Shown piece after piece: positions 24,001 through 27,000 of a stretch of DNA of 44,448 nucleotides; positions within the stretch are counted from its first letter, which is position 1, and every line of letters starts with the position of its first letter. The position numbers are program-made. Origin of the DNA: a virus (lineage: Duplodnaviria; Heunggongvirae; Uroviricota; Caudoviricetes); the IMG/VR virus record IMGVR_UViG_2851949629_000004; one strand, 5' to 3'.

Positions 24001-27000
24001 CAGTTGATTAATATTCAGCACCAGGTTTTTCAACTCATGATCCATATTTCCTCCGGAGAGCTTTAAACATGCATCGTGCGAACAACTTTAAGAAAACGCG
24101 TTCGATGTCGAACAAAAAACACTCAATTCGACATACAAAAAACAAATAATCATTAATAATCAATAAGATGTAAAGATGATGGTGGCCGATAAAAATGCAA
24201 AAACTAGCCTTTTTCCGCGACGCTCCCGCCCCGTGGCAGGCCACCCCACCGGGAGGACCCGTCAGCCTGACAGCCATGACGAACGTCTGATACAGCACCC
24301 TGCATGAATGGCATCGGGATAATCCAGAAAGGAATAGCATCGTACCCACAAGAATCTGTGTGAGTGTCCTGTTTCTTCCACCCCCGCACAGGACTGGCGA
24401 GCATGAGGGACAAACCCGCGAATCATTAGCGCGGTAAAAACCCGGTGTGCATCGTTTTTGATTATTCCCGCACACTCTCGCAGAAGGAGTTCCCCGTCGG
24501 GCTACGGTCTCTGTTAATACGGGAATACGGCGACGATACAGCGCATGATGTGTCAGGCTTGAATACCTTTATCCGTTAAAAGGGATATCAGTTAAGTTAT
24601 CCCGTGTAGGGTATAAGCCATTATCAAAGCCACTCTGTAGGGAGTGGCTTTTGTAATGGCAATAAAAAGCCCCGCGAATACGAGGCTAAATCCTGGTATT
24701 TGTAATGACTGGCTCTTATCTCAACGCAGCCCCTTACCGCGCGCAAGATGCTCAATATCAAGCATCAGCAATGAGATGTTTAATCTGGATTCACTCCAGA
24801 AGTGATCACCACCCTGTCTACAGAGCCAGATGTGAAGGATGATAAGTAAAATTATCGCTATCATCGAAGGCATTGCGTCCTGATGTATTCCTGAAGCGTT
24901 CTCAGTGCTGTTTGGTCGCTGATGATTCCGTCCCGGATACTGAGAACGTTTCGTCCAGCAACTGGAGATAGTTCGACGGTGGCATCATTGCCCATGCCGG
25001 AGGCGCTGGAGGTTTCGGCTGAGGATGGCACAGGGCATTTTCCTTTGACGAACACCCGACCACCATTATCAAGCTTGCGCCGAAGAGCATCATTTTCAGC
25101 TTTCGCATCAGCTAACTCCTTCGTGTATTTAGCATCGAGTGCATCAGCAGAACGCTGGCGCTGCTGCATGTCAGTAATGGTGGCGGTCGCCTGCTTCAGC
25201 TCACTGACTTTTTTATCTCGCTGTTCTTTGTAGGCGATGGCGTTATCACGGTAATGATTGACCGCCCACGACAGGCAGACGATGATGCAGATAACCAGAG
25301 CGGAGATAATCGCGGTTACTCTGCTCATTGTTGCCCCCACAAACAGACTTCACGCTCAATCTCACGACGAGTCATCAGGCCTTTCCATTGCTTACCGCCA
25401 GCGTATGTCCAGCGACGTAGCTGGTCACATGCGCCTTTGATATCGCCCTGGTTTATTTTGCGAAGAAGCGTCGATGTTCTGAAATTGCCAGCACCCACGT
25501 TGTAGACGAACGAGTAAAGAGCGCCGCGCGTTGTTTCCGGTATATCGACTTTGATGTACGGGTTAATTTGTCTGGCGACCGTGGCAAGGTCTTTATTCAG
25601 GAGGGCTTTGCATTCTGCTTTGGTATACGTTTTACCGAGCATGATGTCTTTTCCGGTGTGTCCGTGACATACAGTCCATACGCCAACGATATCTTTGTAT
25701 GGTATGTAGCTGACACCTTCCAGGCCATCGTCACCACTTGGGCCAGTGATTAACACTGATGCTATAGCAATTGCTCCGCCACCAATAGCAGCAGCAACTG
25801 CTTTTCGTAATGATGGAGGCATTATTCACCTCTCGCAGCCTTGCGCTTATCTTCTTTAATCTTGAAATAAAGGTTTGTCAGGTACGTCAGCAGGCCAAAT
25901 ACCAGGCTACCCAGCACACCTATTGCTGCCCACTGTGAGGGCGTGACTTTATCGAGCAGCTGTAAAAACCAGTAACCGGCACTACCTGCTGAGGTGCCAT
26001 AGGCGACACCCGTTGTTAACTTATCCATGGATTTCATAACCCCACCTCGCAGATGCGGGTGCTGTGTAATGGAAATAAAAAGGCCACCTGCGTGGCCACC
26101 AGATTATTTCCCCACCAGCTCGTTTATCTCTTTCACTGTCTGGTTAAACCGCTCTGACTCAAGCTCAACACCTAAGGCCCGACGCCCCAGCGCCATTGCT
26201 GCTTTTATTGTGGAACCGGATCCCATAAAAAAATCAGCAACCAGATCACCAGGTCGACTACTGGCATTGATTATTTGCCTGAGCATATCCGCCGGTTTCT
26301 CACACGGATGTTTACCCGGGTAGAACTGAACGGGTTTATGCATCCAGACATCGGTATAAGGCACGGAGACTGATACGGAGAAATAGCGCCGGAGAGATTT
26401 AAACTCATCCAGCAATTCAGAATATTTGCGATTCAGTGAATCATAAGATGCCACCAGCTGGTGGTGTGGTTGTTCCAGTTGTTGTTCCTGAAACTTCTCT
26501 GCCGCTATACGGGAAAACAGTGCCTGTAACTTCCGATAGTCAGCCTCATTCGGCAACTGCCACTGACTGGCACCAAACCAGTGGGAAACCATATTTTTCT
26601 TACCTGTGGCTTCGGCAATTTGTTTTGCCGTTATACCCAGTTCGGCACGAGCATCCCTGAAATACGATATCAGCGGTGCCATTATGTGCTGTTTGAGTGC
26701 CCTTTCTTTTGCCGCATAGCCGTCACTTTTGCCGCGATATGGCCCCTGGTAATGTTCAGCAAACAGAACGCGCTCTGTGGCAGGAAAATATGCGCGCAGA
26801 CTTTCTTTATTACACCCATTCCAACGTCCGGACGGCTTCGCCCAGATGATATGGTTAAGCACGTTGAAACGTTCACGCATCATGATCTCAATATCAGATG
26901 CCAGGCGATGCCCACAGAACAGGTAAAGGCTTCCGGCAGGTTTTAACACCCGCCAGAACTGGGCCAGACAGTGGTCCAGCCACTTAAGGTAATCTTCGTC

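What the first reader, a model, noticed from the sequence alone, without database searches (positions are those of the whole stretch)
24046..24860. cos region and an 800-bp ORF-free Rz-to-terminase interval
A GC-rich element (ACGGGGCGGGAGCGTCGCGG on the packaging strand) resembles the lambda cohesive-end site as I recall it but differs in sequence. Alternating TCGA(A/C) repeats lie between it and the terminase small subunit gene, consistent with cosB-type binding sites. The rest of the interval has no Bor-like or other ORF but contains a 9-bp-stem hairpin with T-run on the plus strand (24618..24648), which hints at a small plus-strand transcript.
Basis: partly seen in the sequence, partly recalled or inferred. 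Interest (0 to 1): 0.35.

Follow-up and report, generated by a model that had tools for sequence, protein, structure and literature searches.

The report
Lambda-type cos plus late-strand hairpins
This stretch of a lambda-like prophage holds an ordinary cohesive-end (cos) DNA-packaging site already seen at the ends of sequenced relatives, and the hairpin beside it belongs to the phage's own late-gene RNA strand, not to a separate small RNA on the opposite strand.

Summary
The window is a lambdoid prophage with its late genes on the minus strand. The interval is 97.9% identical to prophage Sp3 of E. coli O157:H7 Sakai.

- **cos site: confirmed.** On the minus strand, 24260..24215 aligns with the lambda cos junction. 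It has a cosQ heptamer GGGTCCT, then ACG | GGGCGGGAGCGT | CGCGG. A gpA-type large terminase lies downstream. The deposited genomes of phages cdtI and Tritos open exactly at this 12-mer.
- **cosB: plausible, not shown.** The TCGA cluster is real and forms an inverted repeat ATGTCGAA/TTCGACAT.
- **"ORF-free": mostly right.** A widely annotated 50-aa ORF (PHROG 11822) fills 24721..24873, but its substitution pattern does not show coding constraint.
- **No bor gene.** 24367..24545 is homologous to the bor upstream region, but the predicted promoter hexamers are lost.
- **Hairpin: real, but not on the plus strand.** It is part of a ~90-nt element found in 2543 of 5426 E. coli genomes and in HK97, HK022, Sf6 and HK620; P22 has a diverged copy. 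Compensatory changes and G·U pairs place it on the late (minus) strand: 97% of cells pair there, against 84% on the plus strand. No plus-strand promoter was found.

Overall this is ordinary. The unannotated RNA element is a modest side lead.

The parts
23554..24045 (-). Small terminase subunit gene (163 aa, DUF1441 type)
   Evidence: Pfam PF07278 E 4.6e-44. PHROG 141 'terminase small subunit' E 2.7e-77. 21% identical to lambda Nu1 in the alignment.
24100..24134 (.). Candidate cosB repeats. Palindrome GTTCGAtgTCGAAC at 24100-24113. Perfect 8-bp inverted repeat ATGTCGAA/TTCGACAT at 24105-24112 and 24127-24134, with a 14-bp A/T-rich spacer.
   Evidence: Repeat finder, coordinates, TCGA clustering P about 8e-5. 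Phages with the same cosN but another small-terminase type carry other repeats at this place, e.g. TTTCACCTG twice in Tritos. Binding itself is inferred.
24158..24170 (+). IHF-like site AATCAATAAGATG (one mismatch to WATCAANNNNTTR), lying between cosN and the repeats
   Evidence: Weak: 37 such matches in the whole window, so about 0.16 expected by chance in this 187-bp segment.
24199..24214 (-). AAAAAGGCTAGTTTTT, the conserved segment immediately after cosN
   Evidence: Identical in Tritos, mEp460_4F5 and cdtI, and also present in Ayreon, even though the cosB sequence downstream differs between them.
24215..24236 (-). cosN-like nicking site CCACG|GGGCGGGAGCGT|CGCGG. The predicted 12-nt 5' overhang is 24231..24220.
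   Evidence: Alignment with the lambda junction ACG|GGGCGGCGACCT|CGCGG: 9 of 12 overhang bases and both flanks are identical. The cdtI and Tritos records begin with this 12-mer and end in CCACG.
24254..24260 (-). cosQ-like heptamer GGGTCCT, 22 nt before the predicted nick
   Evidence: Same heptamer as in lambda, where it lies 23 nt before the nick. It is conserved in the relatives. Its role as cosQ rests on my own knowledge of lambda.
24367..24545 (.). Homolog of the bor upstream region, with no bor gene. On the minus strand it forms long-range helices: 24533-24540 with 24448-24455, and 24513-24527 with 24463-24475.
   Evidence: 77-85% identical to the bor upstream region of VT2-Sakai, lambda, HK630 and DLP12. 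Promoter hexamers are not conserved. RNAalifold consensus energy is -53.6 on the late strand against -29.0 on the plus strand.
24568..24622 (-). Nearly invariant 55-nt core of the conserved element
   Evidence: 88-100% identical per column across 99 distinct flanking contexts among viral contigs that share the central 18-mer. Present in 136 phage records and 2543 of 5426 E. coli genomes.
24578..24603 (-). Hairpin H2: GGGATA, a 10-nt loop, TATCCC, followed by UUUU on the late strand
   Evidence: The stem never varies in the sample, so it is uninformative. In P22 five of six stem pairs persist with a different loop and no U run.
24617..24660 (-).
   Evidence: 28 distinct variants in three sequence types. 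6 of 18 pairs have compensatory changes, and 0 of 500 shuffles reach the covariation score. Late strand 97.1% paired against 83.9% on the plus strand. Consensus energy -18.8 against -7.5. Annotated as a terminator in Ayreon.
24661..24687 (-). Canonical intrinsic terminator T1 on the late strand (AGCCTCGTATTCGCGGGGCT + TTTTTATT)
   Evidence: Terminator scan: 8 pairs, 5 of them G-C, loop of 4.
24721..24873 (-). 50-aa ORF overlapping the Rz stop codon by 13 nt; coding status unproven
   Evidence: PHROG 11822 E 3.9e-38. Found in 44 phage records. Variable columns by codon position are 9/7/14, 16 of 25 variable codons change the amino acid, and 2 of 32 alleles carry a stop at codon 16.
24861..25340 (-). 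Rz spanin gene, the upstream border of the interval
   Evidence: Pfam PF03245 E 8.6e-29.

Best explanation
The interval is the non-coding junction of a lambdoid late operon, read on the minus strand from Rz towards the terminase genes.

**Packaging end (24046..24260).** This is a lambda-type cos site: cosQ (GGGTCCT), cosN, and a cosB segment with an inverted repeat and an A/T-rich, IHF-like spacer just upstream of the small terminase gene. By inference, the DUF1441-type small subunit binds the repeats. It positions the gpA-type large subunit, which nicks both strands 12 nt apart and leaves 5' overhangs GGGCGGGAGCGT. cosQ would serve the cut that ends packaging.

**Remainder (24367..24720).** This part is a mosaic of conserved segments whose secondary structure is maintained on the late transcript:
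- a canonical terminator (T1);
- a small hairpin followed by U4 (H2);
- a structured relic of the bor upstream region.

The most likely role of these structures is to stop transcription that is not Q-antiterminated from entering cos and the packaging genes, and to stabilise or process this long untranslated stretch of late mRNA. The anatomy, the homology and the strand of the structure are shown here. The nicking, the protein binding and the RNA function are inferred.
For: **cos**
- Direct alignment with the lambda junction.
- GpA_ATPase E 8.5e-72 and GpA_nuclease E 1.1e-85 in the adjacent 700-aa ORF.
- Small-subunit call from PHROG 141.
- The cdtI and Tritos records open at the predicted nick.
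- 24232..24271 is 95-100% conserved per column in relatives.

**cosB**
- Inverted repeat and TCGA clustering.
- The cosB segment and the small-terminase N-terminus diverge together between the window and mEp460_4F5.
- Tritos has a different repeat with a different small subunit.

**Late-strand RNA**
- H1 covariation and controls.
- G·U asymmetry: 70 cells against 5, and 71 G·U against 1 C·A mismatch in 33 folded variants.
- Consensus energies favour the late strand for H1 and for 24360..24566.
- T1 is found on the late strand only.
- Ayreon annotates H1 as a late-strand terminator.
- Lambda has an 11-bp hairpin at the same place after Rz.
Against: - No virion-end data exist for this prophage. 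The two deposited genomes may have been opened at this site by analogy with lambda rather than by end mapping, and the cdtI paper was not available.
- The small subunit is not of the Nu1 family, and the repeats bear no likeness to the lambda R sites.
- The IHF-like site has a mismatch and could be chance.
- In the window's own allele, H1 is fully Watson-Crick and folds equally well on both strands. It could therefore also terminate plus-strand transcription.
- H1 lacks a good U tract on the late strand (UUAUACCC), so calling it a terminator is uncertain.
- The invariant core could owe its identity to recent horizontal spread rather than to function.
Confidence: 0.72

Rival explanations
1. One reading: the hairpin at 24618..24648 with its T run ends a small plus-strand RNA, possibly driven by the remnant of the bor promoter and made in the lysogen.
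For: - In this allele the stem is perfect and is followed by TTTTG on the plus strand.
- The segment upstream (24438..24545) is homologous to the region that carries the annotated bor promoter in HK630.
Against: - The hexamers TGGACA/TACAAT are CGGTCT/TACGGC here, and likewise lost in the bor-less Stx2 phage 1717.
- No plus-strand promoter-like site is found in 23900..25000.
- The variants carry C·A mismatches on the plus strand that are G·U pairs on the minus strand.
- Hairpin type B has no T run on the plus strand.
- No Rfam family matches.
- The Hfq-CRAC table lists nothing in the Sakai Sp3 homolog.
Confidence: 0.1
2. The ~90-nt element has no RNA function. It is a shared junction ('boundary') sequence at which lambdoid modules recombine, kept identical by recent horizontal exchange.
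For: - The core is nearly invariant, while the flanks switch between unrelated contexts right at its edges.
- Mosaic breakpoints lie at 24366/7, 24438 and 24567.
- The host range is narrow: Escherichia, Shigella, Salmonella phages and Shimwellia.
- Other prophages carry a Rha gene inserted near the left edge of the core, by my reading of the match coordinates.
Against: - H1 exists in three sequence types with the same architecture and with compensatory, strand-specific changes. Pure recombination linkage does not predict this.
- P22 keeps the stems of H1 and H2 although its sequence has diverged.
Confidence: 0.15
3. The interval encodes small proteins: the 50-aa ORF, and the 'hypothetical proteins' annotated in PhiR47_1, mEp460 and Ayreon.
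For: - ORF50 belongs to PHROG 11822 and is annotated in many phages.
- It begins with a hydrophobic stretch.
Against: - ORF50: variable columns by codon position are 9/7/14, most variable codons change the amino acid, and two alleles carry a stop codon.
- The other ORFs have no family match and show no third-position excess.
- The 146-aa ORF runs across the cos cut site.
Confidence: 0.2

Closest known systems
Bacteriophage lambda cos (cosQ-cosN-cosB), cut by the gpNu1/gpA terminase
   Same: - Same order and orientation relative to Rz and the terminase genes.
- Identical cosQ heptamer.
- The ACG and CGCGG flanks and 9 of 12 overhang bases are identical.
- gpA-family large subunit.
- A/T-rich cosB segment with repeats upstream of the small-subunit gene.
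   Different: - The overhang is GGGCGGGAGCGT rather than GGGCGGCGACCT.
- cosQ is 22 nt from the nick, not 23.
- The small subunit is of DUF1441 type, 21% identical to Nu1.
- The repeats are ATGTCGAA-type inverted repeats, not lambda R sites.
cos ends of phages cdtI (AB285204) and Tritos (OV696610), and prophage Sp3 of E. coli O157:H7 Sakai
   Same: - cdtI and Tritos start with the same 12-mer plus CGCGGAAAAAGGCTAGTTTTT and end in CCACG.
- Sp3 is 97.9% identical over Rz to the small terminase gene.
   Different: cdtI and Tritos have a different cosB and a small subunit 45% identical to the one here. How their ends were determined is not known to me.
The lambda bor moron and the Rz-bor intergenic hairpin
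   Same: - 24438..24545 is 82% identical to lambda 46868..46974, upstream of bor.
- Lambda also has a stable hairpin just after Rz.
   Different: The bor coding sequence is absent, the predicted promoter hexamers are lost, and the hairpin sequences are unrelated.
Intercistronic processing or stabiliser hairpins of phage mRNAs (T7 RNase III sites, lambda sib). This comparison rests on my own knowledge.
   Same: H1 is about 18-20 bp of interrupted duplex with a small symmetric internal loop. It lies between cistrons of a long operon and lacks a good U tract.
   Different: No cleavage data exist and there is no sequence likeness. This is a resemblance in form only.

Membership tests
Lambda-type cos packaging site | gpA-family large terminase encoded next to the site | tested here: met
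   PF05876 E 8.5e-72 and PF20454 E 1.1e-85 in 21452..23554.
Lambda-type cos packaging site | cosN sequence with conserved flanks around a 12-nt staggered cut | tested here: met
   ACG|GGGCGGGAGCGT|CGCGG against lambda ACG|GGGCGGCGACCT|CGCGG. This shows sequence likeness only.
Lambda-type cos packaging site | cosQ heptamer upstream of cosN | tested here: met
   GGGTCCT at 24254-24260, 22 nt from the predicted nick (23 nt in lambda).
Lambda-type cos packaging site | cosB: small-subunit binding repeats plus an IHF site between cosN and the small-subunit gene | tested here: inconclusive
   An inverted repeat and a TCGA cluster are present. The IHF-like site has one mismatch. There is no likeness to lambda R sites. 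Binding was not tested.
Lambda-type cos packaging site | Nu1-family small subunit | tested here: not met
   It is DUF1441 (PF07278) with no Nu1 Pfam hit, and 21% identical to Nu1. PHROG 141 still files it as a small terminase subunit.
Lambda-type cos packaging site | Virion DNA ends with 12-nt 5' overhangs at this site | not testable with these tools
   Indirect only: the cdtI and Tritos records open at the site.
Plus-strand small RNA with an intrinsic terminator | Promoter upstream on the same strand | tested here: not met
   No plus-strand site in 23900..25000. The bor promoter hexamers are lost.
Plus-strand small RNA with an intrinsic terminator | Stem maintained on the strand that is transcribed | tested here: not met
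   83.9% paired on the plus strand against 97.1% on the minus strand. G·U cells 5 against 70.
Known RNA families (Rfam 15, including AgvB, AsxR, Esr41, STnc100, IsrK) | Match at or above the gathering score | tested here: not met
   Nothing in the interval at gathering score. Only two sub-threshold hits at E up to 1. One is STnc560, which lies in the ydeI/ydeE core-genome intergenic region (MgrR, by my own knowledge) and is unrelated.
bor moron | Bor lipoprotein coding sequence | tested here: not met
   No such ORF. Homology stops at 24545, upstream of where bor begins in HK630 and VT2-Sakai.
Intrinsic terminator on the late strand | G+C-rich stem followed by a U run | tested here: met
   Met for T1 (24687..24668). 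H1 has only UUAUACCC after its stem and was not called by the scan. H2 has UUUU but a weak 6-bp stem.
RNase III processing site | Cleavage of a roughly two-turn duplex by RNase III | not testable with these tools
   Only the form of H1 and of the long-range helices fits.

The most novel reading that the evidence does not exclude
The H1-core-H2 element (24568..24660), together with the structured bor-upstream segment, would be an undescribed cis-acting RNA of lambdoid late operons. One possibility is an RNase III processing or insulating module that sets how much transcription and translation passes from the lysis cassette into the downstream cargo and packaging genes. It is absent from Rfam. 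It is present in about half of complete E. coli genomes and in HK97, HK022, Sf6 and HK620, with a diverged copy in P22.
Probability: 0.3. Interest if true: 0.45.

Novelty: new member of a known kind. Interest (0 to 1): 0.25.

Why it matters
- **Predictable genome ends.** Knowing the cos site and the predicted overhang lets one forecast the virion genome ends and the packaging specificity of a very common class of E. coli prophages, including Sp3-like prophages of O157:H7.
- **Swappable specificity module.** The paired divergence of cosB and the small-subunit N-terminus points to a specificity module that can be exchanged between phages.
- **Strand correction.** Placing the hairpin on the late strand prevents a false small-RNA annotation.
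- **A cheap experimental lead.** The work flags a widespread, unannotated structured RNA in classic model phages that could be tested easily.

None of this changes current understanding of lambdoid phages.

Tried and rejected
- **Rfam.** Neither the E-value scan of 23000..26500 nor the gathering-score scan of the whole window found a family in the interval. The STnc560 hit is a chance match of two hairpins; that sRNA lies between ydeI and ydeE.
- **Known prophage sRNAs.** AgvB, AsxR and the related EcOnc sRNAs lie 3' of PR' in the moron site, not here. EcOnc13 and EcOnc32 of Sp3 map to 901.3-901.7 kb, between Q and the holin gene. The Pas sRNAs are described next to the holin/lysozyme operon, or near IS009/IsrG. 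I had no Pas sequences to compare.
- **Full-text search for the overhang sequence.** Only unrelated papers came up.
- **The cdtI phage paper (PMC1964815)** is not held.
- **Annotated 'hypothetical proteins' in the interval.** They have no family and no codon periodicity.
- **Ayreon's 'putative late gene regulator'.** It lies in what looks like a mis-assembled stretch at cosN.
- **A late-strand promoter inside the conserved core.** I read the core by eye and found no -10 hexamer with A at position 2 and T at position 6 that was better than 3 of 6. No scan was run on this.
- **Species-representative genome scan for diverged copies.** It gave 10 hits, all with an identical core, so it added no covariation for H2.
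Full report
**Context.** The window is a lambdoid prophage with its late genes on the minus strand.
- The interval 24046..24860 lies between Rz (24861..25340, PF03245) and a 163-aa small terminase gene (23554..24045).
- The small terminase is DUF1441/PF07278 and PHROG 141. It is followed by a 700-aa gpA-type large terminase carrying PF05876 and PF20454.
- Window 23554..25340 is 97.9% identical to 902504..904289 of prophage Sp3 of E. coli O157:H7 Sakai (ECs_0820 to ECs_0824).
- 24240..24720 is 100% identical to a prophage of strain ETEC-2265.

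**The cos site.**
- Read on the minus strand, 24311..24215 aligns with the lambda right-end/left-end junction. The window reads GGGTCCT-22 nt-(ending ACG)|GGGCGGGAGCGT|CGCGG. Lambda reads GGGTCCT-23 nt-(ending ACG)|GGGCGGCGACCT|CGCGG.
- The heptamer matches lambda 48473-48479, which I recall as cosQ. That identification is my own knowledge and was not tested here.
- The deposited genomes of phage cdtI (AB285204) and phage Tritos (OV696610) begin with GGGCGGGAGCGTCGCGGAAAAAGGCTAGTTTTT and end in ...CCTGCCACG. They are opened exactly at the nick predicted by analogy with lambda.
- I could not learn how those ends were determined, because the cdtI paper is not held. This is therefore supporting evidence, not proof.
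- 24232..24271 is 95-100% conserved per column among about 22 distinct relatives.
- A gpA-type enzyme argues against headful packaging. That argument rests on established knowledge of the family.

**cosB.**
- The segment between cosN and the start codon has 34% G+C, against 51% for the window.
- It holds three TCGA cores in 41 bp (P about 8e-5).
- These form a perfect inverted repeat ATGTCGAA/TTCGACAT with a 14-bp spacer, and an overlapping palindrome.
- An IHF-like site with one mismatch lies between the repeats and cosN, but it could be chance.
- Phages that share cosN and the next ~26 bp have other cosB sequences together with other small subunits. Tritos and cdtI carry TTTCACCTG repeats, and their small subunit is 45% identical to this one.
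- mEp460_4F5 has a cosB 75% identical to this one. Its small subunit is 72% identical over the first 75 alignment columns but 99% identical over the last 90.
- That pattern is what a matched DNA-site/DNA-binding-domain pair would give. Binding itself is inferred.

**Coding content.**
- The claim of no ORF is not quite right. A 50-aa ORF (24721..24873, minus strand) overlaps the Rz stop codon.
- It matches PHROG 11822 over its full length. It is annotated in Sf6 (gene 65), epsilon34, g341c, mEp460 and Sakai.
- Among 32 distinct alleles, the variable columns fall 9/7/14 by codon position. 16 of 25 variable codons change the residue, and two alleles have a stop at codon 16. Coding is therefore unproven.
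- The other ORFs that some records annotate in 24204..24579 have no Pfam or PHROG match and no third-position excess.
- There is no bor gene.

**The bor relic.**
- 24367..24545 is 77-85% identical to the sequence upstream of bor in VT2-Sakai, lambda (46868..46974), HK630 and DLP12.
- HK630 annotates a promoter there (TGGACA-15 nt-TACAAT). In the window, and in the bor-less Stx2 phage 1717, these hexamers read CGGTCT/TACGGC and CGGTCA/TACAGC.
- The promoter scan finds no plus-strand site in 23900..25000.
- On the late strand this segment has long-range helices (24533-24540 with 24448-24455; 24513-24527 with 24463-24475). They are 99.3% paired in 13 sequences, with 27 G·U cells that would be mismatches on the plus strand.
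- A fair comparison, predicting a structure separately for each strand, gives consensus energies of -53.6 (late) and -29.0 (plus).
- Variation in this segment is limited, so this is suggestive only.

**The hairpin.**
- Together with a nearly invariant 55-nt core (24568..24622) and a small hairpin H2 followed by U4 (24578..24603), it forms a ~90-nt element.
- The element is found in 136 phage records, including HK97, HK022, HK620, Sf6 and epsilon34. P22 has a diverged copy. It is also in 2543 of 5426 complete E. coli genomes, almost never annotated.
- Among species-representative genomes it appears only in Escherichia, Shimwellia and a few metagenome bins, which I take to be mis-binned contigs.
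- H1 occurs in three sequence types with the same architecture.
- On an alignment of 28 distinct sequences, 97.1% of H1 cells pair and 6 of 18 pairs show changes on both sides. Over the whole structure (H1 plus H2), none of 500 shuffles reaches the covariation score, and slid controls pair at 40-54%.
- The asymmetry is clear. The late strand has 70 G·U cells at 9 pair positions. The plus strand has 5 at 2 positions and pairs at only 83.9%. Folded one by one, 33 variants have 485 Watson-Crick pairs, 71 G·U pairs and a single C·A mismatch on the late strand.
- Consensus energies are -18.8 (late) against -7.5 (plus).
- The Ayreon annotation calls the same hairpin a late-strand terminator.
- Directly upstream on the late strand is a canonical terminator, T1 (24687..24668).
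- In HK97, Sf6 and HK140 the element ends at the ribosome-binding site and start codon of a small late-strand gene (Sf6 gene 67 type). In the window that start is degenerate.
- In the window's own allele H1 is fully Watson-Crick and folds equally well on both strands (z -6.4 and -6.2). A bidirectional effect cannot be excluded.

**Was a small RNA seen here before?**
- No Rfam family matches.
- The Hfq-CRAC candidate table for Sakai lists two Sp3 sRNAs. Both lie between Q and the holin gene. Nothing is listed at 903100-903699, which covers most of the homologous interval.
- This is weak negative evidence: it comes from uninduced cells, and the sequence is multi-copy.

**Verdict.**
- The cos reading is right. 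The site is an ordinary lambda-type cos with a variant overhang that is already present at the ends of deposited phage genomes.
- The cosB reading is plausible.
- The plus-strand small-RNA idea is not supported. The structure in this interval belongs to the late transcript.
- The unannotated H1-core-H2 element is a modest lead of its own. Its function (terminator or insulator, processing site, or mere junction sequence) remains inferred.

Noticed in passing
window 1073..1271 (-), 33706..33793 (-), 33818..33894 (-): Rfam matches above gathering score elsewhere in the prophage: IS009 (223 bits), C4 antisense RNA (82.8 bits) and isrK (63.7 bits), the last two adjacent. A 2026 preprint reports IS009 as a common neighbour of the prophage sRNA PasB.
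   Followed up: no
L001 (phage Ayreon MF807953, record 44410..44708): In the Ayreon record the cosN overhang is replaced by about 170 bp that includes a copy of an internal piece of the small terminase gene. This looks like an assembly artefact at the cohesive ends. The annotated 'putative late gene regulator' lies in this stretch.
   Followed up: partly
L007/L008 (mEp460_4F5 LR595868 ends): The record is opened 5 nt before the predicted nick and lacks TCG within the overhang (GGGCGGGAGCG-CGG). This is probably an end-assembly effect.
   Followed up: no
window 24146..24174 (-): The only sigma-70-like site in 23900..25000 (TTTACA-17 nt-GATTAT, 9 of 12) lies inside cosB and points towards the small terminase gene. 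The shuffles give 1.7 such sites on average, so it may be chance.
   Followed up: no
window about 24568..24573: In many E. coli prophages and Stx phages, matches break near the left edge of the conserved core with a Rha-family regulator gene annotated under the match. I read this as a ~1-kb insertion at that point. In P22 the same place holds a poly-G run, a strong terminator and an insert.
   Followed up: partly
loci L079 and L132 (viral contigs): Two variants of H1 have the CA/GA internal loop closed into perfect pairing. In one the 5' side changed; in the other the 3' side changed. Both give perfect palindromes.
   Followed up: no
L006 528..560 (lambda 46427..46459): Lambda has a perfect 11-bp hairpin (GAGTTGCCCAT/ATGGGCAACTC) in the 31 bp between the convergent Rz and bor genes. 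It has no U run on either strand.
   Followed up: no
L139 (Sakai NC_002695.2 903124..903797): The current Sakai annotation goes from ECs_0822 straight to ECs_0824. I take this to mean that a gene once called in this interval (ECs_0823) has been dropped.
   Followed up: no
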